A stretch of 10,971 nucleotides of DNA from Caedibacter taeniospiralis (GCF_002803295.2 NZ_PGGB02000018.1:18164-29134); one strand, 5' to 3'. Shown: positions 561 to 10,971, numbered from the stretch's first letter. Translations and numbers: made by a program. The notes: a model not told the origin generated them from the sequence alone.

Positions 561-1361
561 ATGAAAAATTTAAAGTTGAATAAAGTGATCCTGGCGCTAT
601 TTGCAGTGAGTGCACTTAATGGCATTGCCTTTGCAGAAACAGATGCTGAAAAAATCGTACGCTTAGAGCTTGAATTAAAAGAATACAAAGAGATCTCAAA
701 CAAATATAGAGCTGATTTGGATATATCACATCAAACGTATCAACAATATCAAATAGAAATGGATCAATCATATGCCTTAATAAATGAAAAACTTAAAGAA
801 GTAACTCAGGGATCATACAAAGTTTTTGATGAACAACAAGAGAAATTTGAGAATGAACTTACAGAAGAAGTTACAAAAACCGACAATATTAAAAATAATT
901 TAGATACGATTGGAAATAAAATAAAATCCTTAGAAAAAGAGGAAAAAAAATTAAAAGATGAAAAAAATCAACTGATTAATGATTTCAATCAAAAGATAAA
1001 AAACTTAAATGAAGAATTACTAAAACAAACAGAAGAATCTACACATGAGCTTGATCAAAAAATCAAAGAACTAAATACTGCCAGACAAAACGAAGATGTG
1101 CTAAAAAAACAACTCATAGATATAATTGAGCAACATAAGAAAAATTTAAGTGCGTCTAAAATACGTTTTAAACAGCGAGAAGCAGGTATAGTTGAGCACT
1201 ATAAAACTGTCGGTTCCACATTAGAAGCTCGGCTCAAAGTTATTACTAATACAAAAAGTGTTACAGTAGAACAACTGAAAAAAAATCAGGGTGCCTCGGG
1301 CCTCATGATAGATTTTGTATATCCATACACAAAATCGAATCGGCTATCCTCGGCGGTATAA
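561..1361 (+). CDS. secreted coiled-coil protein; the last ~24 codons and the stop codon lie inside repeat-element copy A
   Basis: ORF track. N-terminal signal peptide MKNLKLNKVILALFAVSALNGIAFA|ETD (K-rich n-region, hydrophobic core, AFA-E cleavage motif). The rest is K/E/L/N-rich and heptad-like. The sequence from codon 244 (GASGLMIDFVYPYTKSNRLSSAV*) is encoded by the GC-rich element starting at 1288. Confidence 0.75.
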   Translation: MKNLKLNKVILALFAVSALNGIAFAETDAEKIVRLELELKEYKEISNKYRADLDISHQTYQQYQIEMDQSYALINEKLKEVTQGSYKVFDEQQEKFENELTEEVTKTDNIKNNLDTIGNKIKSLEKEEKKLKDEKNQLINDFNQKIKNLNEELLKQTEESTHELDQKIKELNTARQNEDVLKKQLIDIIEQHKKNLSASKIRFKQREAGIVEHYKTVGSTLEARLKVITNTKSVTVEQLKKNQGASGLMIDFVYPYTKSNRLSSAV

Positions 1362-1579
1362 ATTTTGCCCGGGCCGCCCGCCTCAACGGTGCTTGTCCTC
1401 ACAAATTCGCTACGCTCATTCCGAACAGACAACACGTTTCCGATTCTACTCTACGCCTTGGGTAAAAGCTTTTTCACAGACTTCGCTCTGGCGCCTTCGG
1501 CACGTCGCTTGCTGATCAACAGCGCAAGGCTACCCGGGTCTACTCGCCCTCGCGTTCCGCTATCCATGGCTCGCAGCGA
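1288..1579 (+). mobile_element. GC-rich non-autonomous repeat element, long form, copy A (292 bp, AGGGTGCCTCGGGCC...GGCTCGCAGCGA)
   Basis: Direct alignment by eye with 7493-7782 (reverse complement) and 6391-6503 (short form). Composition is much more GC-rich than the flanks. Subterminal hairpin GATTTTGTATATCCATACACAAAATC at 1311-1336. No transposase gene inside. Confidence 0.8.
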
Positions 1580-1754
1580 TTGAGGATGTGGTAAGACTAA
1601 CCGAACGCTTGAAAATTAACCCTTGATACAAGTTTTAGAAAATTTTGAACCTTAGATGGTCTGTTAATCTAAGCGTGTAAATTTTACATAGGTTATAATG
1701 TAATCAAATTTATACTTAAGCAAACTATTAAAAACTACACATGGACATCGACTG

Positions 1755-2063
1755 ATGGATGATCTGAATACAAATCTCATTTGCGGTATCACTGATAAGA
1801 ATTACAAGATAACTCTACATACTAACTTAAGTAATCATCGTTTAAATGCTGAGAAAAAAATGGAGTCCTTTGATGACGAGAATTATAAAAAGCTTATTGA
1901 AATCGGTAAAAAAGCTGTATATGAAATCTCAGAGATCGAAGCACTGCCTTCGTTTTTGAACATGTATTACAAAGGTAAAGCGACTCTACTTTTCGAGATA
2001 GATATTAGTAAGTCTTCTACATTCACACATCCAGATAACCACGCTCGAGTAGTTCCGAGGTAA
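1755..2063 (+). CDS. hypothetical protein (102 aa)
   Basis: ORF track only. No recognisable motif and no clear ribosome-binding site seen. It is the only sizeable ORF in this interval. Confidence 0.4.
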   Translation: MDDLNTNLICGITDKNYKITLHTNLSNHRLNAEKKMESFDDENYKKLIEIGKKAVYEISEIEALPSFLNMYYKGKATLLFEIDISKSSTFTHPDNHARVVPR

Positions 2064-2157
2064 ACACTGGGTACACTAGCCACTTACGCTTTAATTTCGC
2101 GGGTAAATCGTTTCCATTGAGACTATTGAAGATAGTTCTTGATTTAGATCAAGTATT

Positions 2158-2343
2158 TTATGCCGATATAGCAATCTTGTAAGCCAAACATCCTAAAGTA
2201 ATCAAAAGGATGAAAGACACTGCTATAATGCACTTTTTCATATCTATCTCTAACGCCATCATCCGTTTTAAGTATCGTTTAAACGAATGGCAGATCGGAT
2301 TTAATTTGTTCATTTTCTTTATCATAGTCACCTCTTCTATCAA
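2158..2343 (-). CDS. small membrane protein with a C-terminal hydrophobic helix (CIIAVSFILLITLGCLAYKIAISA)
   Basis: ORF track. GAGGTGA lies just upstream of the internal ATG at 2325, so the real start may be MIKKMNKL (55 aa). It begins 13 nt downstream of the 78-aa ORF's stop codon (2357-2359), consistent with co-transcription. Confidence 0.45.
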   Translation of the reverse strand: MIEEVTMIKKMNKLNPICHSFKRYLKRMMALEIDMKKCIIAVSFILLITLGCLAYKIAISA

Positions 2344-2356
2344 TGATTAAACTCGC

Positions 2357-2593
2357 TCAAAAGGAGATTTCATCATCCTGAAAATTATTAACCGCTGCTG
2401 CTATTTCTTCAGCTGTTGGGAGTTTTTTGGCTTCAATATGAGAAGGTTTGCTCCCTTTCATCTGAGCATATTGATTGACTTTCTCTTGCCCATCTATGGG
2501 TTTATCAGATGGTCTTGCGTAGTGTATTAATATATTCAAAATATCATATATTTTATCATACAAATAAATATTTTTTAGAGTAGTTTTGAGCAT
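2357..2593 (-). CDS. hypothetical protein (78 aa)
   Basis: ORF track. Codirectional with and closely spaced to the 61-aa ORF. No recognisable family. Confidence 0.45.
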   Translation of the reverse strand: MLKTTLKNIYLYDKIYDILNILIHYARPSDKPIDGQEKVNQYAQMKGSKPSHIEAKKLPTAEEIAAAVNNFQDDEISF

Positions 2594-2731
2594 TTTTAAA
2601 ATAGACGAGGCTATAGCTGTTTTTGAAGAAAAAAGTCATCAACCTCAAATAACACTGACCTATATCAAAATCTGTCAAAAACGCTCACACTACATGTCGC
2701 TGTTCTTTGACAGCATGAACACAACCAATCA

Positions 2732-3631
2732 CTAGTGCTGTGTCTGTTCCACTTCTTTTTTCAGTTTAAGCACAGTGTCCTGATCAAGACCTGTTCCTTT
2801 AACCACCTGTTCAGCAGATAACCCCATCAGTAAGAAATTACGTGCGGTTGTTTGTATTCCTTTTTGTATTCCTTTTTGCTCCCATTGTTCTGCTACCGTC
2901 ATAACATCACCTCTTAAATCTGGTTTGCTGTATATTAGTTTATCATGAAAATCCTTGGTTTCCATGTCCGAATATTGAGACATATACCGAATCAGTACTT
3001 GTCGTGCAATATGGTCATACGCTTCAATCTGATTAATCGCAATATCAAGCTTGCCATCGATGTTCTTTTCTCTGATGGCTTTTAAAATTAATTCGTATCC
3101 TGCAATAAAACCGTGTTCTAAAATTTCCTCGTCACTGTAACGATTAAGGTCAATGAATTGTGTCGTGAAGGCGTATTTTTTAGCTAACTCTGTATTGGCA
3201 AAATAATCATGGATATTAAGACTGTGACTAAATGGCTTTTGATTGGCATAGTAGATAATCGATACCACTAACGGCAAACCTTTTACTGTCTTGTGCCTTT
3301 TAATATAATCCAACAAGTAGCTGGTTTGATAATGTCTTGTGCGGATTAATATAGTGCCATCATCTCCAGTTTGCGATTCAATATGGACGAATACGGCACC
3401 GTTTTTACCATCCTTGAATTTAAAAAGAAAAGTTAAATCGGACTGTTCTTTTTGCTTTTGATTGTCCTTTTGCTGTTGTCTAACATGCTCAACATTCGCG
3501 GACTCAAGCTTGACAGTTTGCCAGTCAACTAACTCGACAAGTTCTTTAGGCAAGTAGGTCATCAAAAAAGAGACGGCAAAATCTCTATTAGCGATTAAAT
3601 CTTTAAAAACTGAATCATGTACATTTTTCAT
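2732..3631 (-). CDS. Rpn family recombination-promoting nuclease / putative transposase (YhgA-like, PD-(D/E)XK)
   Basis: N-terminal HDSVFKDLIANRDFAVSFLMTYLP matches the family-typical HDxxFKxx...FLxxxLP opening. There is a core VHIESQT motif (hhhEhQS). The C-terminal EQWEQKGIQKGIQTTARNFLLMGLSAEQVVKGTGLDQDTVLKLKK tail is typical of Rpn proteins. Recognition is by memory of the family, not by search. Confidence 0.85.
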   Translation of the reverse strand: MKNVHDSVFKDLIANRDFAVSFLMTYLPKELVELVDWQTVKLESANVEHVRQQQKDNQKQKEQSDLTFLFKFKDGKNGAVFVHIESQTGDDGTILIRTRHYQTSYLLDYIKRHKTVKGLPLVVSIIYYANQKPFSHSLNIHDYFANTELAKKYAFTTQFIDLNRYSDEEILEHGFIAGYELILKAIREKNIDGKLDIAINQIEAYDHIARQVLIRYMSQYSDMETKDFHDKLIYSKPDLRGDVMTVAEQWEQKGIQKGIQTTARNFLLMGLSAEQVVKGTGLDQDTVLKLKKEVEQTQH

Positions 3632-3774
3632 TAATGAAATTAGTGTTTTTTTCTTCGACTAAGGAGGATGAGATAACAGTAACACAAATTTGATTTTTAG
3701 CAATTCTGTCATGGTTAACCAGAAAAAGTTCTCAAAAAAAGCATTTTTAAGTGTGTGTTTATGTGTTGCTATTT

Positions 3775-3848
3775 GGCTTTTATTTGATTTAATTATTAAA
3801 TAAATATTTATTATAATTGAATTTTATATGGACAAATAATTACAAATT
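3775..3848. promoter_or_regulatory. nearly pure A/T tract next to the tandem array; candidate DNA-unwinding element
   Basis: The sequence gcttttatttgatttaattattaaataaatatttattataattgaattttatatggacaaataattacaaatt has very few G/C and directly abuts the repeat array. No DnaA box was recognised. Confidence 0.3.
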
Positions 3849-4824
3849 GAGCCATGAGAAATGAGCCATGAGAATGAGCCATGAGCCATTAGCGGATTAG
3901 CTATTAAACCCTTAAGCCATAAGGATTTGAGCCATTACCCATTGAGCATTACCCATTGAGCATTACCCATTGAGCCATTACCCATTACCCATTAGCGGAT
4001 TAGCTATTAAACCCTTAAGCCATAAGGATTTGAGCCATTACCCATTGAGCATTACCCATTGAGCCATTACCCATTACCCATTAGCGGATTAGCTATTAAA
4101 CCCTTAAGCCATAAGGATTTGAGCCATTACCCATTGAGCATTACCCATTGAGCATTACCCATTACCCATTAGCGGATTAGCTATTAAACCCTTAAGCCAT
4201 AAGGATTTGAGCCATTACCCATTGAGCATTACCCATTGAGCCATTACCCATTGAGCCATTACCCATTACCCATTAGCGGATTAGCTATTAAACCCTTAAG
4301 CCATAAGGATTTGAGCCATTACCCATTGAGCCATTACCCATTGAGCATTACCCATTGAGCATTACCCATTGAGCCATTACCCATTGAGCATTACCCATTG
4401 AGCCATTACCCATTACCCATTAGCGGATTAGCTATTAAACCCTTAAGCCATAAGGATTTGAGCCATTACCCATTGAGCATTACCCATTGAGCCATTACCC
4501 ATTGAGCATTACCCATTGAGCATTACCCATTGAGCATTACCCATTGAGCCATTACCCATTGAGCCATTACCCATTGAGCATTACCCATTGAGCCATTACC
4601 CATTGAGCATTACCCATTGAGCATTACCCATTGAGCATTACCCATTGAGCCATTACCCATTACCCATTAGCGGATTAGCTATTAAACCCTTAAGCCATAA
4701 GGATTTGAGCCATTACCCATTGAGCATTACCCATTGAGCATTACCCATTGAGCCATTACCCATTACCCATTAGCGGATTAGCTATTAAACCCTTAAGCCA
4801 TAAGGATTTGAGCCATTACCCATT
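3849..4824. repeat. two-tier non-coding tandem array: 8 x 39-bp anchor units plus 40 x 14/15-bp short repeats (candidate iteron or centromere array)
   Basis: The anchor TAGCGGATTAGCTATTAAACCCTTAAGCCATAAGGATTT starts at 3890, 3993, 4082, 4170, 4274, 4421, 4668 and 4771. Runs of GAGC(C)ATTACCCATT follow the anchors in counts of 4, 3, 3, 4, 7, 14, 4 and 1. Every run except the last is closed by ACCCAT. A degenerate GAGCCAT lead occupies 3849-3889. No ORF is present on either strand. Confidence 0.95.
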
Positions 4825-4835
4825 GAACGAATAAA

Positions 4836-6272
4836 TTATTGAATTTCGTAATACGCGTGTCTACCTTTTCCAAACAATTTAATTTTTGTTTTTGACTTAA
4901 GTCTTTGCAGCCAAATTTTAACCATTTCTCTTGATTTGTCAGGAAATAACTCCATAGCCTCTCTAGTCGTTATTTTACCGTGCTTTTGAATATGTTTAAC
5001 AATCGCATTTTCTGCCAAATTTTCATCGTTTTTTAGTGGTTGATTTGGTTGAGTTTTTTCCTCTAAATCAGGTGTATTTTCCACTTTAATTTCATCATCT
5101 TTTTGAGCTATAATTGCTTCTGCAAATTTCTCTATTGATTGAATAGTAGCGATTTTGCCGTTTAGAAGCTCATCAAGAGACTTTTTTGTTATACTCGTAG
5201 GGTTGTATAGGATGATATCTTTTAATTCAAAGGCGAGCTTCCTAGACGCCTTTAAATCGGTGTTTAGATGATACTGTAGCGTTAATCCATTTTTTCTCCA
5301 CCATTTATTGATTATTTCAAAGTTTTCTTCTGACTGCTTCACTTGTGCTTGTTTTTCTTCATTTAATACCTCTGTATCGTTTGTATTTAAAGGCTTAAAG
5401 CCATTTTCAAGAAGTTTGCATAAATAGCCTGCAAGATTATGAATTTTACTTTTTTTGTTCTCGTTGTAAATTGTCTCAAACCCTTGTTCTATCTTGTTTT
5501 TACCATGTTTTTTAATTAATCCCATAGCGTTTTCTGATGAAAATCCCATATCCATCAATTCAGAAAAACAAAAAAAATCATCATCAAAATCAGTCACGTT
5601 TTCTGCGTAATGAGATTCGTCTGTTTGCAAAATTTCTTTGCGCGCGGTGATGATTGATCTCTTGTTTTCTTCTGTATTCTTATGTAGGGAGCTGTCTACG
5701 CCTTGCAGTGTATGGGTTTGAGAGGTGTTGACAATACACGGTTTGTCCATTTTTTTCCCCGTTTTGTCCATTTTTTTCCCCGTTTTGTCCATTTTTTTCC
5801 CCGTTTTGTCCATTTTTTTCCCCGTTTTGTCCATTTTTTTCCCCGTTTTGTCCATTTTTTTCCCCGTTTTGTCCAAAAAGCCCTGGTTTGTACAATTTTG
5901 GGTTATTTTTAGTTCTGTCTTGTTTTTTTTCTGAATGTTTCTTTTAATAGCTTCGTCAACAACCCATATTTTTCTCTGCAAAATAGAATTGTTGTTGAGA
6001 TCTTTTTTCCGATGAAGATAGCCAAAAGAGGCTAGTTTATCGATATGTCTCTTAATTGATTTTTTACACATATTAAAAAATTTCGCAAAAAAATCGTCAC
6101 TGGCGTAACAAACTCCTTCGTCATTACTCGATAGCATTTTGATTTTAGACAATAGACCAACCTGTATCAAAGACACACCTTCTAACAAAAAATATGACTT
6201 CGGAATTTTTACCATATCCTTTTCTTCATCGTTTAAAACTTGAGTTTGTTTCATGTGATAAATTTGATTCAT
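4836..6272 (-). CDS. HTH-domain replication-initiator-like protein (478 aa) with an internal DKTGKKM x6 repeat
   Basis: The ORF-track start at 6320 is a TTG. The ATG at 6272 is preceded by AAGGAG (plus-strand ctcctt 6281-6286) with 8-nt spacing. The N-terminal segment LLSKIKMLSSNDEGVCYASDDFFAKFFNMCKKSIKRHIDKLASFGYL resembles HTH_36 / phage-plasmid replication-organiser winged helices. A second HTH-like segment lies at the C-terminus (ITTREAMELFPDKSREMVKIWLQRL). The gene abuts the tandem array. The function is inferred. Confidence 0.55.
   Translation of the reverse strand: MNQIYHMKQTQVLNDEEKDMVKIPKSYFLLEGVSLIQVGLLSKIKMLSSNDEGVCYASDDFFAKFFNMCKKSIKRHIDKLASFGYLHRKKDLNNNSILQRKIWVVDEAIKRNIQKKNKTELKITQNCTNQGFLDKTGKKMDKTGKKMDKTGKKMDKTGKKMDKTGKKMDKTGKKMDKPCIVNTSQTHTLQGVDSSLHKNTEENKRSIITARKEILQTDESHYAENVTDFDDDFFCFSELMDMGFSSENAMGLIKKHGKNKIEQGFETIYNENKKSKIHNLAGYLCKLLENGFKPLNTNDTEVLNEEKQAQVKQSEENFEIINKWWRKNGLTLQYHLNTDLKASRKLAFELKDIILYNPTSITKKSLDELLNGKIATIQSIEKFAEAIIAQKDDEIKVENTPDLEEKTQPNQPLKNDENLAENAIVKHIQKHGKITTREAMELFPDKSREMVKIWLQRLKSKTKIKLFGKGRHAYYEIQ
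5739..5874 (-). repeat. 21-bp tandem repeat inside the rep-like CDS (6 perfect copies plus 1 degenerate)
   Basis: Plus-strand CCCCGTTTTGTCCATTTTTTT, with cores at 5757, 5778, 5799, 5820, 5841 and 5862. A degenerate CGGTTTGTCC lies at 5739. It encodes DKTGKKM x6. Confidence 0.95.
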
Positions 6273-6359
6273 TTTTGGGACTCCTTTTTCATGGATTGAA
6301 CAGACCACAGAAGTGAACAAAAAAGCTCTTTCACATCCTGCGATATGATAGTTATTTGA

Positions 6360-6390
6360 GATTTTTGATTTTTGATTTTTGATTTTTGAT
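6360..6390. repeat. 7-bp microsatellite GATTTTT x4.4 upstream of the rep-like gene
   Basis: Direct reading gives gattttt gattttt gattttt gattttt gat. It lies 88-118 nt upstream of the ATG at 6272 and directly abuts element copy B. Confidence 0.9.
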
Positions 6391-6503
6391 AGGGTGCCTC
6401 GGGCCTCATGATAGATTTTGTATATCCATACACAAAATCGAATCGGCTATCCTCGGCGGTATAAATTTTGCCCTCGCGTTCCGCTCTCCATGGCTCGCAG
6501 CGA
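6391..6503 (+). mobile_element. short form (113 bp) of the GC-rich repeat element, copy B
   Basis: It has the same left 82 nt and right 31 nt as the long copies. It lacks the central 179 bp, and the junction falls in a shared GCCC. Confidence 0.8.
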
Positions 6504-6516
6504 GCGATATCCCTAT

Positions 6517-6693
6517 TTAGGCATGATTATTTTCATCGGTGTGCTCAATATCTTTTTCAATAATTTGAACTTCCTTTTCAACGAATTTTGCACCTTCTTC
6601 GGCGAGTTTAATCTCAACCAGTGGACCTATCGTACATCCTCCTAGAATGATTGATAAAGATAGCACTGTCAAAACTTTTGAATATTTTTTCAC
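6517..6693 (-). CDS. small lipoprotein (58 aa: MKKYSKVLTVLSLSIILGGCTIGPLVEIKLAEEGAKFVEKEVQIIEKDIEHTDENNHA)
   Basis: Hand translation; not in the supplied ORF track. GTG start at 6693. Canonical lipoprotein signal peptide (KK n-region, hydrophobic core, lipobox L-G-G-C). TAA stop at 6519-6517. It lies antisense to the element-seeded plus-strand ORF 6418..6645. Confidence 0.55.
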   Translation of the reverse strand: MKKYSKVLTVLSLSIILGGCTIGPLVEIKLAEEGAKFVEKEVQIIEKDIEHTDENNHA

Positions 6694-6754
6694 TTTAATT
6701 TTCTTAAAAAGAAATTACATATTATATATATAAAATAAATATATTTTAATTGCA

Positions 6755-7306
6755 TTAACTTTCTAGTTCATCTTTGTTTTTTGTATCCTTAAAAAAAATT
6801 TTTGGTCTCCCTCTTGGTCGCTTTGGTTTATCTTCTATCGAAGATTTTTGTACTATTTTTTTTGGACGACCCCTTGGCTTCTTATCTAAATTATCAACGT
6901 AATCCAAGAGATTATCTGGATTAGGAATATGTGCTTCATCAGAAATCAAGGCTTTAAATTCATTTGCAAATTTAAAAAGCACTACGCGTTTCTCTCTCGG
7001 CTTTATTTTTTCCATAGTACGTGGGTTATGAGCATTTTTTCTAAAACTTACTCGTGTCTCAAAGCGCCCAAGCCCTTCAAGTAAAATAATCCGATTATTA
7101 AGCAACTGCTCACGTAAAAGATTCATTAACTCATAAAAGAAATGATTACAATCTTCTCTACTAAATTTCGTCTTGAGTGATAAATGTTTAATCAACTCAT
7201 TTCGACTCATAGATCGATTATCTTTCTTACATGGTCTTCCCCTACCCCTTTTAAGCACTTCTTGTTTGTCATTTTCTTGATTTAGTTTTTTTTCTGCGTT
7301 TATCAT
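6755..7306 (-). CDS. HU/IHF-fold DNA-binding protein with N- and C-terminal AT-hook extensions
   Basis: The core MSRNELIKHLS...LEGLGRFETRVSFRKNAHNPRTMEKIKPREKRVVLFKFANEFKALI follows the HU/IHF pattern (MNKxELI start, GxGxF, R..RNPxT.E.I.I, V.FK). AT-hook-like RGRGRPCKK sits before the core, and PRGRPKK and PRGRPK after it. The internal Met33 is an alternative start. Confidence 0.7.
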   Translation of the reverse strand: MINAEKKLNQENDKQEVLKRGRGRPCKKDNRSMSRNELIKHLSLKTKFSREDCNHFFYELMNLLREQLLNNRIILLEGLGRFETRVSFRKNAHNPRTMEKIKPREKRVVLFKFANEFKALISDEAHIPNPDNLLDYVDNLDKKPRGRPKKIVQKSSIEDKPKRPRGRPKIFFKDTKNKDELES

Positions 7307-7380
7307 TTTTTTTCATCTAACTACTGAATGATTCATCGAGCCTTATGTTGGTTATCCTCTGTCGAATAGAGCAGTATCAA

Positions 7381-8021
7381 TCACTTCCAACTCGCGATTT
7401 CAGCAATTCTCTTGTCTGAATTCAAACGATTTTTTATGGCTTCTGCTCTTTTCAACGTGTTTTCTATGTAAACATCATCAGAATTTATACACTCGCTGCG
7501 AGCCATGGAGAGCGGAACGCGAGGGCGAGTAGACCCGGGTAGCCTTGCGCTGTTGATCAGCAAGCGACGTGCCGAAGGCGCCAGAGCGAAGTCTGTGAAA
7601 CAGCTTTTACCCAAGGCGTAGAGTAGAATCGGAGGAGTGTTGTCCGTTCGGAATGAGCGTAGCGAATTTGTGAGGACATGCCGAGGAGGCGGACGGCCCG
7701 GGCAAAATTTATACCGCCGAGGATAGCCGATTCGATTTTGTGTATGGATATACAAAATCTATCATGAGGCCCGAGGCACCCTATTGAGTTTATTCTCAAA
7801 GGACACTCTGTTTGATGCACTTCTTGATAACACTCAACCATTTCCAGGGTCAGCGATCCTCTTGAGTGTTTCTCTTTTAAATATTCAATATCTGACCACC
7901 GTGCTTTACGGATGTCATCTCTGTAAAAATTCATGAAACTTCTTTTTGTTTCAAACACCCCGTAACGTTTATTGATTGCTCTAATAAAAAAATCGTCAAA
8001 AGTTATCACCATCTTATTCAC
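7381..8021 (-). pseudogene. small hypothetical gene interrupted by element copy C; the N-terminal part is fused to element-encoded residues in the 154-aa track ORF
   Basis: Native codons run from 8021 (GTG; or more likely the ATG at 8012, preceded by AGGTGA) to 7783. The element occupies 7782-7493. The downstream tail CINSDDVYIENTLKRAEAIKNRLNSDKRIAEIASWK* (7491-7381) is in frame with the upstream part once the 290 bp are removed. Confidence 0.6.
7493..7782 (-). mobile_element. GC-rich non-autonomous repeat element, long form, copy C (290 bp, inverted relative to A)
   Basis: Its reverse complement aligns end to end with 1288-1579. The first ~89 nt are identical. About a dozen substitutions and a 2-nt indel are clustered in the central segment. 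Confidence 0.8.
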
Positions 8022-8097
8022 CTAAAAATATTTTTTATGATTCAAAAACCATCTCGCCATCTTCTCTCACCAACGGAATCGTCATCTTCTTGTCTTT

Positions 8098-8445
8098 TTA
8101 TACCGCTCGAAGGTAATATGAATATTCATAACCGTCTTTGGTTAATTTCTTCTCCCACGAGCTCAAATGCTCTGGCATGAACAGCGTTTCTTTATTTTTA
8201 ACACTTTCTACAGGATACGTATACGGCTTCTTCGTGTAAAAAATTCCCGTGTACCGATAGCCAATAGGTAAACTATCTTTTTTCTTTTCAAAACAGACTA
8301 TCGCTTCGTTAAAATACGAAATCACCTTCTTAAATTTTTCTTCACCTGAATAATCAATCAACACTTTTTCTTTCTGCATAATAAGCTCAATAATACGCTT
8401 TATGTTTTGGATGTCTGTTTTTAGCTTTTGACGTTCACTACTCAT
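8098..8445 (-). CDS. hypothetical protein (115 aa), translationally coupled to the upstream gene
   Basis: The ATG at 8445 overlaps the upstream TAG (8440-8438) as ATGAGTAG. AAGGAG lies 10 nt upstream. No recognisable family. Confidence 0.6.
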   Translation of the reverse strand: MSSERQKLKTDIQNIKRIIELIMQKEKVLIDYSGEEKFKKVISYFNEAIVCFEKKKDSLPIGYRYTGIFYTKKPYTYPVESVKNKETLFMPEHLSSWEKKLTKDGYEYSYYLRAV

Positions 8446-10126
8446 TTTTTCTTATCTCCTTTTCTTTTTCACGTTGTTTTTGTTTTAAAGCTTCAATGGA
8501 TTTTTGAGCTTCGATGTGGCTTGTTGCCTGTTGTTCTTGACAGCTATAACCATCAACCAAAGCCCAATGCCGTTTTTTAAATGTTCCGATAAAGACATGC
8601 TTAGGATTATTAATCGCTTTTTCATCCCACCTTTTACTTATATCTTCCCATTGATAAGTCATTTGATGTTCAAAATGCCTTAAGAAAATTTGCAGTTGAA
8701 GTGGGTTCATTTCTATGTTATTTTCTTCAGCGTTAATTTTGATTTTATTGATGTCCGATGAATAGAAGGGTGCTTTCCCCATGCTTTTCAATAGGTCGTT
8801 GATTTTGGTAAGGTCGATGGTTTCGTAAGTAAGGTCAAGATTAACATCGCTTAGATTGACATGACTTAAAGTCAGAGAGTCTGTTTTGTTTAATTCATCT
8901 CTAGTGGTTTCGTTTGTTTTAGTTGCTTCTGAGTTATTTAAAGTAATTTTTCTTAAATCATGATTTTCTTTAACGAGCAGTTCGTATTGCTCTTTTATAA
9001 ATTCCAATTCTTCTGTTAATTTTTCAACGTCATTAGATTGACTATATTTAGAACTGTCTGTTTTTTCATCTTGTCCCATATTACATAACATACTATGCTC
9101 TTCTATTTTATCTATATTATAAATATGGGAGTCGCTTTCATTTTTTTGTGGTGTGTTTTTTTCAAAGTCACCTTGTGTACTTTGTAGGCTTTTTACGTAC
9201 TCAAAAACGTCTGGTCTGATCTGATATTTTACCCATCCATTTCGACCTGTTTTACGCTCGTAAACTGAAATGTAGTTCTTCTTTTTGAGGCGGTAAATTG
9301 CTTTTTTTACAATGTCTTTATTAGATTTTATCTGCTTAATTATATTGTTAGTGTTGATATGACATGTGATTAGTAAACATAAATTTTCTAAGCTAGAAAT
9401 CATAATTCTTATAACTATAAATTGACACCCGTTCAGTTGGATTTTATTTCCTGTTTCTTGAGACATGTCCTCCGTTTTGTCCCCTATTTCTTGAGACATG
9501 TCCTCCGTTTTGTCCCCTGTTTCTTGAGACATGTCCCCCGTTTTGTCCCCTATTTCTTGAGACATGTCCTCCGTTTTGTCCCCTGTTTCTTGAGACATGT
9601 CCTCCGTTTTGTCCCCTGTTTCTTGAGACATGTCCCCCGTTTTGTCCCCTGTTTCTTGAGACATGTCCTCCGTTTTGTCCCCTGTTTCTTGAGACATGTC
9701 CCCTGTTTTGTCCCCTGTTTCTTGAGACATGTCCCCTGTTTTGTCCCCTGTTTCTTGAGACATGTCCCCCGTTTTGTCCCCTGTTTCTTGAGACATGTCC
9801 CCTGTTTTGTCCCCTGTTTCTTGAGACATGTCCCCTGTTTCTTGAGACATGTCCCCCGTTTTGTCCCCTGTTTCTTGAGACATGTCCCCCGTTTTGTCCC
9901 CTATTTCTTGAGACATGTCCTCCGTTTTGTCCCCTGTTTCTTGAGACATGTCCCCCGTTTTGTCCCCTGTTTCTTGAGACATGTCCCCCGTTTTGTCCCC
10001 TGTTTCTTGAGACATGTCCTCCGTTTTACCGTGGTTATTTATAAATGGGTTATCCCATGGTCGATATTTTTTAGGAATATATTCTTTTTTAGACACTAAA
10101 ATAGTGATGTTTTCAATTTTAGGCAT
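8438..10126 (-). CDS. repeat-containing winged-helix protein in the ParB position (562 aa); candidate centromere-binding or Rep-like protein
   Basis: The ATG at 10126 lies 1 nt after the parA stop codon (TAAAATG). Residues 37-230 are 18 tandem DMSQETGDKTG/E units. An HTH-like segment follows (IKQIKSNKDIVKKAIYRLKKKNYISVYERKTGRNGWVKYQI). No ParB/Spo0J motifs were recognised. Confidence 0.7.
   Translation of the reverse strand: MPKIENITILVSKKEYIPKKYRPWDNPFINNHGKTEDMSQETGDKTGDMSQETGDKTGDMSQETGDKTEDMSQEIGDKTGDMSQETGDKTGDMSQETGDMSQETGDKTGDMSQETGDKTGDMSQETGDKTGDMSQETGDKTGDMSQETGDKTEDMSQETGDKTGDMSQETGDKTEDMSQETGDKTEDMSQEIGDKTGDMSQETGDKTEDMSQEIGDKTEDMSQETGNKIQLNGCQFIVIRIMISSLENLCLLITCHINTNNIIKQIKSNKDIVKKAIYRLKKKNYISVYERKTGRNGWVKYQIRPDVFEYVKSLQSTQGDFEKNTPQKNESDSHIYNIDKIEEHSMLCNMGQDEKTDSSKYSQSNDVEKLTEELEFIKEQYELLVKENHDLRKITLNNSEATKTNETTRDELNKTDSLTLSHVNLSDVNLDLTYETIDLTKINDLLKSMGKAPFYSSDINKIKINAEENNIEMNPLQLQIFLRHFEHQMTYQWEDISKRWDEKAINNPKHVFIGTFKKRHWALVDGYSCQEQQATSHIEAQKSIEALKQKQREKEKEIRKNE
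9437..10027 (-). repeat. 33-bp tandem repeat inside the CDS (16 full units, one 21-bp unit, one degenerate terminal unit)
   Basis: GAGACATG recurs at 9460, 9493, 9526 and onward with a 33-nt period, with a single 21-nt step (9823 to 9844). The plus-strand unit is CCCCTGTTTCTTGAGACATGTCC[C/T]CCGTTTTGT. Confidence 0.95.
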
Positions 10127-10127
10127 T

Positions 10128-10971
10128 TTAAATTCCCAATATTTCGGATGTTAATAAACTAAAATCTTCTTTTTCTGGAGTTTTTTTAAAACTATCAAAG
10201 ACTGATATAGACGCTGCTATACAGTTCTCTATAGATTGAAGCGACCTTATATAGCTTCTTAATAAAATTGAGTTGCACTGTTTATTTTTTAATACATATT
10301 TCATTACTTCATGCGATAGATTTGTTCTTGAATCAAATTTATTAAACAATATCTTCAAAACTATATCTTTATCATATTTTTCACATAAATTTAAAATTTC
10401 ATGATGAGTTAATTCAAGACCAGCTAAAGCATAATCAGTTGGAGTGATAGGCATTATTATTTCATCTGATGCAAGTGTAGCAGCAGATACTGCTGACCCT
10501 ATAGATGGTGGACAGTCAATAACAATAATATCATATTTGTTTTTTAATTCTGAAAAAGGTTTATTAAAAACCTTATCTAATGGATGCTTACCAAGCATTA
10601 AAGAGTTATCAAGTAAGGCATTATCTACCCTGCTTGGTATAAAATCTAAACCATCAAATATATTTATAAGTAAATCACTTATCTCTAATTTGTCATTTAT
10701 ATAATCAATAAGAACAGGTTTTTTTCTGGCATCAACCCCCAATGTTCTTGTAAGATTTGCTTGTTGGTCTAATTCAATAAGAGCCACTTTAGCACCTAAG
10801 ATGGCAGCTCTAATCGCAAAATTTAATGATATAACTGTTTTACCAACCCCTCCTTTAACTAATTGGAATGAATATATCTTATTGGGGAATTTATAATTAA
10901 AAAGTTTTTTTGCAGTGTTATGAGAAAAATATACTCTTCTACCAAAATTTTTAGTTTGAAGCCCGCTGTTC
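10128..10971 (-). CDS. parA: ParA/Soj-family partition ATPase, 5' end beyond the window edge
   Basis: The track ORF starts at a GTG (10787), but the frame stays open to 10971 by hand translation: ...NSGLQTKNFGRRVYFSHNTAKKLFNYKFPNKIYSFQLVKGGVGKTVISLNFAIRAAILGAKVALIELD. Deviant Walker A KGGVGKT is encoded at about 10842-10862. Walker B-like IIVIDCPP is present. Confidence 0.9.
   Translation of the reverse strand, partial: NSGLQTKNFGRRVYFSHNTAKKLFNYKFPNKIYSFQLVKGGVGKTVISLNFAIRAAILGAKVALIELDQQANLTRTLGVDARKKPVLIDYINDKLEISDLLINIFDGLDFIPSRVDNALLDNSLMLGKHPLDKVFNKPFSELKNKYDIIVIDCPPSIGSAVSAATLASDEIIMPITPTDYALAGLELTHHEILNLCEKYDKDIVLKILFNKFDSRTNLSHEVMKYVLKNKQCNSILLRSYIRSLQSIENCIAASISVFDSFKKTPEKEDFSLLTSEILGI

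What the first reader, a model, noticed from the sequence alone, without database searches (positions are those of the whole stretch)
5739..5874. Iteron-like 21-bp array inside the initiator-like gene, arranged like lambda ori inside gene O
Six perfect and one degenerate 21-bp direct repeats sit just after the N-terminal winged-helix segment of the 478-aa HTH protein. They encode a simple DKTGKKM linker. In phage lambda the origin iterons lie within the O initiator gene, in the region encoding the interdomain linker, next to an A/T-rich segment. Here the array is likewise followed on the plus strand by T-rich sequence at 5875-5945. The unit length is a multiple of 3, so the frame is preserved. 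An origin embedded in its own initiator gene is a plausible reading, and an alternative to the 1-kb array being the origin.
Basis: partly seen in the sequence, partly recalled or inferred. Interest (0 to 1): 0.7.

Follow-up and report, generated by a model that had tools for sequence, protein, structure and literature searches.

The report
Origin-like repeats inside a plasmid initiator gene
Six perfect 21-bp repeats inside the replication-initiator-like gene of the Caedibacter R-body plasmid sit where phage lambda keeps its origin, and relatives show that this stretch is conserved as DNA, so it is most likely an initiator-binding origin element of a known kind.

Summary
TRF finds 6.4 perfect 21-bp copies at 5742-5875, flanked by one degenerate copy on each side. 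They encode (DKTGKKM)x6, just after the N-terminal winged helix of a 478-aa HTH_36 protein. The window is plasmid pKAP51/pKAP298 of Caedibacter taeniospiralis.

Comparative evidence favours a cis-acting DNA element over a mere protein linker:
- Relatives carry 21-22-bp-spaced repeats at the same place with different sequences. One has a 22-bp spacing that cannot give a protein repeat.
- Between two relatives that are 56% identical, the repeats are the best-conserved DNA of the gene.
- In another pair, the winged helix and the repeats diverge together between identical flanks.
- Phage initiators with a homologous N-terminus, and lambda O, have iterons at the same position.
- The array is the most curved DNA predicted in the window, as in the lambda control.

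Caveats:
- The "AT-rich" flank is unremarkable.
- No helicase-loader gene is present.
- The unit has no dyad symmetry.
- The perfect identity implies recent amplification.
- A 1-kb array with a truly AT-rich flank lies just after the stop codon and is a rival origin.
- The 13-bp core of the unit recurs in a 33-bp array inside the neighbouring ParB-position gene.

Verdict: a new member of the lambda-O kind of origin inside the initiator gene. Origin activity is unproven.

The parts
5742..5875 (-). Perfect 21-bp tandem array (6.4 copies). The unit on the coding strand is GGACAAAACGGGGAAAAAAAT and encodes (DKTGKKM)x6.
   Evidence: TRF, 100% matches, score 268; translation; predicted to be the most curved DNA of the window.
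5736..5893 (-). Extended site cluster of eight copies of the 13-bp core: one degenerate, six perfect, one degenerate. Spacings are 21 bp six times, then 19 bp.
   Evidence: Pattern search with up to 3 mismatches. The copy at 5881-5893 is out of frame with the others.
4836..6272 (-). Initiator-like gene, 478 aa (WP_100550347.1): N-terminal wHTH, repeat linker, conserved helical middle domain, C-terminal wHTH.
6015..6137 (-). Coding region of the N-terminal HTH_36 winged helix (aa 46-86), the proposed reader of the 21-bp units.
   Evidence: Pfam E=5.7e-8; tblastn to phage replication initiation proteins.
4839..5033 (-). Coding region of the C-terminal winged helix (aa ~414-478), the proposed reader of the downstream array.
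   Evidence: AF2 pLDDT 86-91; weak HTH_DeoR/HTH_39 matches; present only in family members that have a downstream array.
5875..5945 (.). T-rich flank (A-rich on the coding strand). A possible but unremarkable unwinding region.
   Evidence: 71.8% A+T, 77th percentile.
3840..4826 (-). 1-kb array of 14/15-bp units starting 10 bp after the stop codon. In gene orientation it holds 33 copies of TCAATGG. It is a rival or partner origin, or a copy-control site.
   Evidence: TRF; motif count and the same core after the stop codon in L002 and L003.
3775..3840 (.). Strongly AT-rich stretch (88% A+T) at the far end of the 1-kb array. The best unwinding-element candidate in the region.
9450..10027 (-). 33-bp array (~17 copies) inside the ParB-position gene. 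It carries the same 13-bp core GGACAAAACGGGG in the same reading frame.
8438..10126 (-). 562-aa gene directly downstream of parA (ParB position), with a central winged helix.
   Evidence: The homologue after parA in Piscirickettsia plasmids has 11-bp repeats in its N-terminal coding part.
6755..7306 (-). HU-family DNA-bending protein with AT-hook-like RGRP motifs. An HU gene lies near the initiator-family gene in four loci.
   Evidence: Pfam; synteny in L004, L005 and L006.

Best explanation
The 21-bp array is a cluster of binding sites (iterons) for the N-terminal winged helix of the protein whose gene contains it. This is a lambda-O-type replication origin, or the initiator-loading part of one, embedded in the linker-coding segment of the initiator gene of plasmid pKAP51/pKAP298. 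Proposed mechanism (inferred): several initiator molecules bind the eight sites, which are spaced two helical turns apart on one face of DNA that is already curved. They wrap this DNA into an O-some-like complex, possibly helped by the neighbouring HU-like protein. Adjacent A+T-rich DNA opens for a host helicase. Transcription of the gene itself runs through the site, as in lambda. The six identical central units are a recent amplification or homogenisation of an older, degenerate array. As a by-product they lengthen a disordered protein linker by 7 aa per unit. Shown here: the repeat, its position, the protein class, the DNA-level constraint in relatives and the predicted curvature. Inferred: binding, origin firing and the role of HU.
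For: 1. Protein class. Pfam HTH_36 matches at E=5.7e-8. PHROG replication-initiation and O-like families match at 3e-11 to 2e-7. tblastn hits only the N-terminal domain of phage 'replication initiation proteins', which are followed by DnaC-like loaders. BFVD fold hits include replisome organizers and 'GpO N-terminal'.
2. Position. Lambda's annotated iterons lie at aa 117-145 of O with spacings of 20/24/23 bp. Staphylococcus phage 77, Pseudomonas phage Skulduggery and Lactobacillus phage c5 each have 3-4 repeats spaced 20-24 bp right after the wHTH coding part. The window array covers aa 134-175.
3. Family. Repeats of 21-22 bp lie at the same linker position in L002, L003, L004, L005, L008 and L010, with unrelated sequences. 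In L010 the palindromic unit CGCCAAATTTGACG recurs at exactly 22 bp, which is not a multiple of 3, and there is no protein repeat.
4. DNA-level constraint. L002 and L003 are 56% identical overall, but 78-83% identical across the repeats. That is higher than in the wHTH part, at 63-68%.
5. Co-variation. L005 and L008 are 100% identical up to about aa 33 and again from about aa 138. They diverge through the wHTH recognition part and most strongly in the repeats.
6. An out-of-frame degenerate copy lies at 5881-5893.
7. A wedge model ranks the array as the most curved DNA of the window (z about -8). The lambda control peaks on its iterons. L004, L008 and L010 also rank first at their repeats, and L006 ranks near the top. 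Iteron bending and the six-iteron Stx phages are documented in PMC7466680.
8. No other Rep-like protein was found among the pKAP298 proteins scanned, and the gene sits in the par/HU maintenance cluster.
Against: - The unit has no dyad symmetry, unlike lambda iterons and most relatives.
- The six units are 100% identical, which fits recent slippage and gives no information on selection.
- L006 has a C-terminal part about 90% identical to that of L004, which carries a perfect array. L006 has no detectable array, only one GGACAAAACAGG and phased A-tracts.
- The flank is not unusually AT-rich.
- There are no DnaA boxes and no loader gene.
- The cumulative GC-skew minimum of pKAP298 lies at 36.5 kb, in parA, not at the array. 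This is confounded by the gene-orientation switch there.
- The L003 contig also encodes a Rep_3 initiator, so family members need not be the only replicon.
- The protein does not reach Pfam Phage_rep_O, and BLASTP against lambda O is not significant.
- The same core in the par-gene array allows a different binding protein.
Confidence: 0.5

Rival explanations
1. The origin of pKAP is the 1-kb array plus its AT-rich end (3775-4835), as in a classical iteron plasmid. The in-gene 21-bp array is an auxiliary initiator-binding site (autoregulation, copy control by handcuffing) or a vestige of a phage-type origin.
For: The array starts 10 bp after the stop codon and holds 33 TCAATGG cores in one orientation. 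The same core starts 7-10 bp after the stop in L002 (TTCAATGG x5) and L003 (TTCACTGG, at least 3 copies), although the proteins are only 21-24% identical. It occurs only in members with the extra C-terminal wHTH. The only strongly AT-rich stretch (88% A+T) adjoins it. L002 also has AT-rich DNA after its array.
Against: Short family members and phage initiators lack any downstream array yet keep the in-gene repeats. About 60 units over 1 kb is far more than known origins use and looks more like a sink or a centromere. L009, a long member, has only two TCACCG copies.
Confidence: 0.2
2. The array is only an in-frame slippage product (a coding VNTR) in a disordered, lysine-rich linker, with no function as DNA.
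For: The period is a multiple of 3. The six copies are identical. The region is predicted disordered. L004 has a perfect array, while L006, about 90% identical to it in the C-terminal part, has none. The A-runs are slippage-prone. The single LDKTGK of P0138 shows that the unit arose from pre-existing linker sequence.
Against: It does not explain the 22-bp out-of-frame repeats of L010. It does not explain why the repeats are the best-conserved DNA between L002 and L003, nor the co-divergence with the wHTH. It does not explain the out-of-frame degenerate copy at 5881-5893, the positional match to lambda and other phage iterons, or the identical 13-bp core in a second array.
Confidence: 0.2
3. 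The units are bound by the ParB-position protein (562 aa), not by the initiator. The array is then a second centromere-like or silencing site that links partition to expression of the initiator.
For: The 13-bp core GGACAAAACGGGG is identical in both arrays and occurs nowhere else on the 49-kb plasmid. The Piscirickettsia homologue downstream of parA has 11-bp AAACGGAACAC clusters in its own N-terminal coding part, a related ACAAACGG motif that is not frame-preserving.
Against: The initiator family has linker repeats in loci with no par genes. GGACAAAACAGG is ancestral to the initiator linker (L006). The two proteins share no similarity outside the repeats.
Confidence: 0.07

Closest known systems
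Phage lambda ori inside gene O (and lambdoid/Stx phages with 4-6 iterons)
   Same: The initiator has an N-terminal winged-helix DNA-binding domain. Direct repeats about two helical turns apart lie inside its own gene, just after that domain, in the linker-coding part. The DNA is intrinsically curved. Iteron number varies between relatives and adds residues to the protein. The right half of lambda iteron 1, CAAAACGAGGGAAAA, resembles the unit CAAAACGGGGAAAA. This resemblance is a lead only.
   Different: There is no significant sequence similarity to O. The units are perfect, contiguous and lack dyad symmetry. There are eight sites rather than four. The A-rich flank is on the other side and is not exceptional. 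There is no P/DnaC-like loader gene. The protein has an extra C-terminal wHTH and a second array after the stop codon.
Phage 'replication initiation protein' + DnaC-like loader modules (Staphylococcus phage 77, Pseudomonas phage Skulduggery, Lactobacillus phage c5)
   Same: The N-terminal domain is homologous (28-42% identity). There are 3-4 repeats spaced 20-24 bp directly after it inside the gene.
   Different: Those proteins are about 250 aa and are followed by a loader. Their repeats are imperfect and not frame-preserving. Origin function in those phages was not checked in the literature here.
RepA_N plasmid replicons of Gram-positive bacteria (pAD1, pSK41, pLS32)
   Same: From my own knowledge, not tested here: the origin repeats lie in the central part of the initiator gene, bound by the N-terminal domain, and further short-repeat arrays lie nearby for partition or incompatibility.
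   Different: There is no RepA_N Pfam match. The host is a gammaproteobacterium. The domain layout is different.
P1 / F iteron plasmids (origin iterons plus a second iteron cluster after the rep gene for copy control)
   Same: There are two repeat clusters around one initiator gene, one starting right after the stop codon (from my own knowledge of incA and incC; layout here).
   Different: Here the two clusters have unrelated sequences and would need two different DNA-binding domains. There is no Rep_3/RepA-type fold and no DnaA box.

Membership tests
Lambda-O-type origin inside the initiator gene | The initiator carries an N-terminal winged-helix domain of the O-like / replisome-organizer class. 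| tested here: met
   HTH_36 E=5.7e-8; PHROG replication initiation / O-like families 3e-11 to 2e-7; phage initiator hits; BFVD hits to replisome organizers and GpO N-terminal.
Lambda-O-type origin inside the initiator gene | Sequence membership in the O protein family (Pfam Phage_rep_O, PF04492). | tested here: not met
   The window protein has no PF04492 match at E<=0.1. One family member matches at 0.0013. BLASTP against lambda O gives E=0.43.
Lambda-O-type origin inside the initiator gene | Three or more direct repeats about two helical turns apart inside the gene, just after the DNA-binding domain. | tested here: met
   6.4 perfect units plus 2 degenerate copies, with 21-bp (once 19-bp) spacing, at aa 134-182. 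The lambda control lies at aa 117-145.
Lambda-O-type origin inside the initiator gene | Each iteron has internal dyad symmetry. | tested here: not met
   No inverted repeat of 8 nt or more in 5700-5960. Dyad symmetry is present in the relatives L002/L003 (GGTTTAA..TTAAACC), L004 and L010, and in phage 77.
Lambda-O-type origin inside the initiator gene | Intrinsically bent iteron DNA. | tested here: met
   By the wedge model the array is the most curved stretch of the window (z about -8), and the lambda control peaks on its iterons. The model's parameters were entered from memory, so this is qualitative.
Lambda-O-type origin inside the initiator gene | An adjacent AT-rich unwinding region. | tested here: inconclusive
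   5875-5945 is 71.8% A+T. That is close to lambda's roughly 75% in absolute terms but only the 77th percentile here. The other flank is 54.5% A+T.
Lambda-O-type origin inside the initiator gene | A partner helicase-loader gene (P or DnaC-like) next to the initiator. | tested here: not met
   The neighbours are the 1-kb array, an Rpn nuclease and an HU-like gene. No loader is annotated on pKAP298.
Lambda-O-type origin inside the initiator gene | The initiator binds the repeats, and replication starts there. | not testable with these tools
   This needs EMSA or footprinting, replication assays, or marker-frequency mapping.
Classical iteron plasmid replicon (Rep_3 / RepA / pi type) | A Rep protein with the Rep_3-type double winged-helix fold. 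| tested here: not met
   No Rep_3 match. The PDB fold search gives only generic winged helices.
Classical iteron plasmid replicon (Rep_3 / RepA / pi type) | DnaA box(es) at the origin. | tested here: not met
   No TTATCCACA with up to 1 mismatch in the window, against 3.6 expected.
RepA_N replicons | A RepA_N N-terminal domain (PF06970). | tested here: not met
   Absent from the Pfam results for the window protein and its relatives.
Coding VNTR / protein-level tandem repeat | The repeats preserve the reading frame across the family, and the constraint acts on the peptide. | tested here: not met
   Frame-preserving in the window, but the spacing is 22 bp in L010 and 20-24 bp in phages. The repeats are the best-conserved DNA between L002 and L003. 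The flanking copy in the window is out of frame.

The most novel reading that the evidence does not exclude
The maintenance region of pKAP may be a coupled three-array system in which the cis sites are written into, or abut, the genes of the proteins that use them. The same 13-bp core (GGACAAAACGGGG) fills 6-8 sites at 21-bp spacing inside the initiator gene and about 17 sites at 33-bp spacing inside the ParB-position gene. One protein could therefore read both arrays and link replication initiation to partition or copy control, for example by handcuffing the origin to the par-gene array. A second, C-terminal winged helix of the initiator would read the 1-kb TCAATGG array. Partition-adaptor genes that carry their own centromere-like repeats, as also seen in Piscirickettsia plasmids, would be a little-described arrangement.
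Probability: 0.15. Interest if true: 0.7.

Novelty: new member of a known kind. Interest (0 to 1): 0.45.

Why it matters
The replicon of the R-body ("kappa") plasmids of Caedibacter does not appear to have been defined. The two genome papers I could read do not mention an origin, and I could not access the 2005 pKAP298 paper. Identifying the initiator and its cis sites gives a concrete minimal-replicon candidate. That could help build vectors for Fastidiosibacteraceae and related intracellular bacteria. More generally, the comparison shows that a poorly annotated family of HTH_36 proteins, labelled "helix-turn-helix", "UBA domain" or even "transposase", follows the lambda-O rule of an origin inside the initiator gene. 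It also offers simple sequence signatures for annotating such origins: repeats spaced 21-22 bp after the winged helix, a curvature peak, and co-divergence of the winged helix with the repeats.

Tried and rejected
- The word-indexed homologue search with the whole protein returned only the protein itself, because the repeats saturated the candidate list. The exhaustive search was also dominated by low-complexity hits to the repeat, and only about 8 true relatives emerged.
- Scans of genome and viral contigs with the family alignment found nothing.
- Exact searches for two tandem units in genome and metagenome collections found nothing, so copy-number variation beyond pKAP51 and pKAP298 (same count in both) could not be assessed.
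- Rfam, tRNA, promoter/terminator and ssDNA folding checks were all negative or at chance level. An RNA or hairpin role for the array is therefore rejected.
- The short ORFs in other frames across the array (5680-5895, 5703-5912, 5725-5934) are by-products of the repeat.
- GC skew was tried as an origin locator. Its minimum coincides with the switch in gene orientation at parA, so it is uninformative.
- Descent of pKAP from the L006-type phage was rejected, because only the initiator gene is shared.
- The 2005 pKAP298 paper could not be read.

Full report
**What the window is.** The window matches plasmid pKAP298 of Caedibacter taeniospiralis (NC_005915.1), the R-body "kappa" endosymbiont of Paramecium. 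Identity is 99.9% over window 1579-10971, which corresponds to record 27200-36592. The window has one extra copy of a 293-bp GC-rich repeat. The 478-aa protein is WP_100550347.1, encoded on a 41,651-bp contig. That size is the one reported for pKAP51 (PMC7297999). In the older pKAP298 record an extra G (record 30590) truncates the gene to 436 aa.

**The observation.**
- TRF finds period 21, 6.4 copies and 100% identity at 5742-5875.
- On the minus strand the unit GGACAAAACGGGGAAAAAAAT encodes DKTGKKM six times (aa 134-175), followed by a degenerate DKPCIVN.
- A mismatch-tolerant search adds a degenerate copy at each end, at 5736-5748 and 5881-5893. The second lies 19 bp from its neighbour and is therefore out of frame.
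- The array follows the HTH_36 winged helix at aa 46-86. It lies in a segment that AlphaFold2 leaves disordered.
The "T-rich/AT-rich" flank is real but ordinary for this sequence, at 71.8% A+T and the 77th percentile.

**What the protein is.**
- Pfam gives only HTH_36.
- PHROGs give "replication initiation protein" and "replication initiation O-like" families for the N-terminal third.
- tblastn against phages hits only the N-terminal domains of annotated replication initiation proteins. In Staphylococcus phage 77, Pseudomonas phage Skulduggery and Lactobacillus phage c5 these are followed by a DnaC-like loader.
- A fold search against viral models returns HTH proteins, replisome organizers and "lambda GpO N-terminal".
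- Direct similarity to lambda O is not significant. The PDB offers only generic winged helices.
- True relatives are few. An exhaustive search found about eight, mostly from metagenomes and one from Cysteiniphilum, which belongs to the same bacterial family.
- These relatives share the N-terminal wHTH, a variable linker and a conserved helical middle domain. A "long" subgroup that includes the window protein also has a C-terminal wHTH.

**Is the repeat a DNA element or a peptide repeat?** Five lines of evidence point to DNA.
1. *Position in relatives.* The relatives carry repeats at the same linker position with unrelated sequences.
   - L002 and L003 have 21-bp units with the palindrome GGTTTAA-AAA-TTAAACC.
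   - L004 has at least 3.7 perfect 21-bp units at a contig end.
   - L005 and L008 each have two units 21 bp apart.
   - L010 has the near-palindrome CGCCAAATTTGACG three times at exactly 22 bp, plus an inverted copy. Because 22 is not a multiple of 3, the protein there has no repeat.
2. *Conservation.* The L002 and L003 genes are 56% identical overall. The best-conserved 60-bp windows (78-83%) are the repeats in the supposedly disordered linker. The winged-helix part is only 63-68% identical.
3. *Co-divergence.* L005 and L008 are 100% identical over the first ~100 nt and again from about aa 138. Between those points, the recognition part of the winged helix and especially the repeats have diverged together. 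From my own knowledge, lambdoid phages show the same pattern: the O N-terminus and the iterons form a type-specific unit.
4. *Lambda and other phages.* Lambda's annotated iterons lie at aa 117-145 of O, spaced 20/24/23 bp. The three phage initiators above have 3-4 repeats spaced 20-24 bp directly after the winged helix.
5. *Curvature.* The unit places an A4 and an A7 tract 10.5 bp apart. A wedge-model calculation ranks the array as the most curved stretch of the window (z about -8). The same calculation peaks on the iterons in the lambda control. It also peaks on the linker repeats in L004, L008 and L010, and is near the top in L006. I entered the model parameters from memory, so this result is qualitative. 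Iteron bending, the location of the lambda origin in the middle of O, and the six-iteron Stx phages with 13 extra residues in O are documented in PMC7466680.

**What argues for caution.**
- The window unit has no dyad symmetry.
- The six units are identical, which implies recent amplification and says nothing about selection.
- L006 has a C-terminal part about 90% identical to that of L004, which carries a perfect array. L006 has no detectable array, only one GGACAAAACAGG encoding LDKTGK. This shows that the window unit was amplified from ancestral linker sequence.
- There is no loader gene, and there are no DnaA boxes.
- GC skew bottoms out at parA, where gene orientation switches, so it is uninformative.
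- The contig of L003 also encodes a Rep_3 protein.

**The other two arrays.** The plasmid has only three large arrays, and all are in this window.
- *The 1-kb array (3840-4826).*
   - It begins 10 bp after the stop codon. In gene orientation it holds 33 TCAATGG cores.
   - L002 has TTCAATGG five times and L003 has TTCACTGG at least three times, each starting 7-10 bp after the stop codon. L009 has two TCACCG copies.
   - This feature occurs only in the long members that have the C-terminal wHTH, which is therefore its likely reader (inference).
   - Its far end adjoins the only strongly AT-rich stretch, at 88% A+T. It is a credible alternative origin or a copy-control site.
- *The 33-bp array (9450-10027).*
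   - It lies inside a 562-aa gene immediately downstream of parA. It contains the same 13-bp core, GGACAAAACGGGG, in the same reading frame, and that core occurs nowhere else on the plasmid.
   - The two proteins are otherwise unrelated.
   - The homologue of the 562-aa protein in Piscirickettsia plasmids also follows parA. It carries 11-bp AAACGGAACAC clusters in its N-terminal coding part, again not frame-preserving.
   - The shared core is far beyond chance. It implies either gene conversion between the arrays or a common binding protein. I cannot tell which.

**Conclusion.**
The lambda-O analogy is supported by homology of the DNA-binding domain, by position, and by DNA-level conservation and co-variation in relatives.
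- It fails on dyad symmetry, on the loader partner and on a distinctive AT-rich flank. Origin activity remains untested.
- I file the array as a new member of a known kind, an origin or initiator-binding iterons inside the initiator gene, recently amplified, with confidence of about 0.5.
- The main rivals are that the downstream 1-kb array is the real origin, or that the perfect copies are a functionless VNTR.
- The coupling suggested by the shared core with the par-gene array is the most novel reading that remains open.

Noticed in passing
window 9450-10027 (inside ORF 8438-10126, minus strand): A 33-bp array of about 17 copies encodes DKTGDMSQETG inside the gene that follows parA. It shares the exact 13-bp core GGACAAAACGGGG, in the same frame, with the 21-bp array. 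The core occurs nowhere else on the 49-kb plasmid.
   Followed up: partly
L016 (Piscirickettsia salmonis plasmid NZ_CP038958.1) 1222-1463: The homologue of the 562-aa protein also sits directly after parA. It has four clusters of 11-bp repeats (AAACGGAACAC) in its N-terminal coding part. This is not a multiple of 3, so it is a DNA-level motif and possibly a centromere inside the adaptor gene.
   Followed up: partly
window 3840-4826; L002 4691-4763; L003 7975-8004: A short-period array with a conserved core (TCAATGG / TCACTGG, one orientation) starts 7-10 bp after the stop codon of the initiator-like gene. It is seen only in family members that have a C-terminal winged helix. It is about 1 kb long in the window.
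   Followed up: partly
window 1287-1579, 7489-7794, about 6394-6690; pKAP298 21746-22038, 25356-25650, 33112-33407, 38841-39145: A GC-rich repeat element of about 293 bp is present in several copies. The copy at 1287-1579 is absent from the corresponding site of pKAP298, so the element is polymorphic or mobile (MITE-like). It has no Rfam match.
   Followed up: partly
window 4968 / NC_005915.1 position 30590: The pKAP298 record has an extra G that truncates the initiator-like gene to 436 aa and removes the C-terminal winged helix. This is either a real difference between strains or an old sequencing error.
   Followed up: partly
window 4836-6272: PHROG family phrog_151, annotated 'transposase', matches aa 98-435 at E=2e-188. 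This is far stronger than the replication-initiation families. The label is probably misleading, or the profile is dominated by a close relative.
   Followed up: no
window 6755-7306; L004 2256-2573; L005 6151-6483; L006 12813-13130: An HU-family gene lies within a few kb of the initiator-family gene in four independent loci. The window copy has added RGRP AT-hook-like motifs. This may be a conserved accessory DNA-bending partner.
   Followed up: no
window 6360-6390: A perfect 7-bp repeat (GATTTTT x4.4) lies about 90-120 bp upstream of the initiator start codon, next to a copy of the GC-rich element.
   Followed up: no
L009 1804-1837 and 2160-2176; L002 4410-4434 and 4783-4800: The 12-bp repeats TGAGGCGGTGAG lie inside the C-terminal coding part of the long family members. 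An inverted, similar motif (TCACCGCCTCACCG / TTACCGCCTTACCGC) lies just after the stop codon.
   Followed up: no
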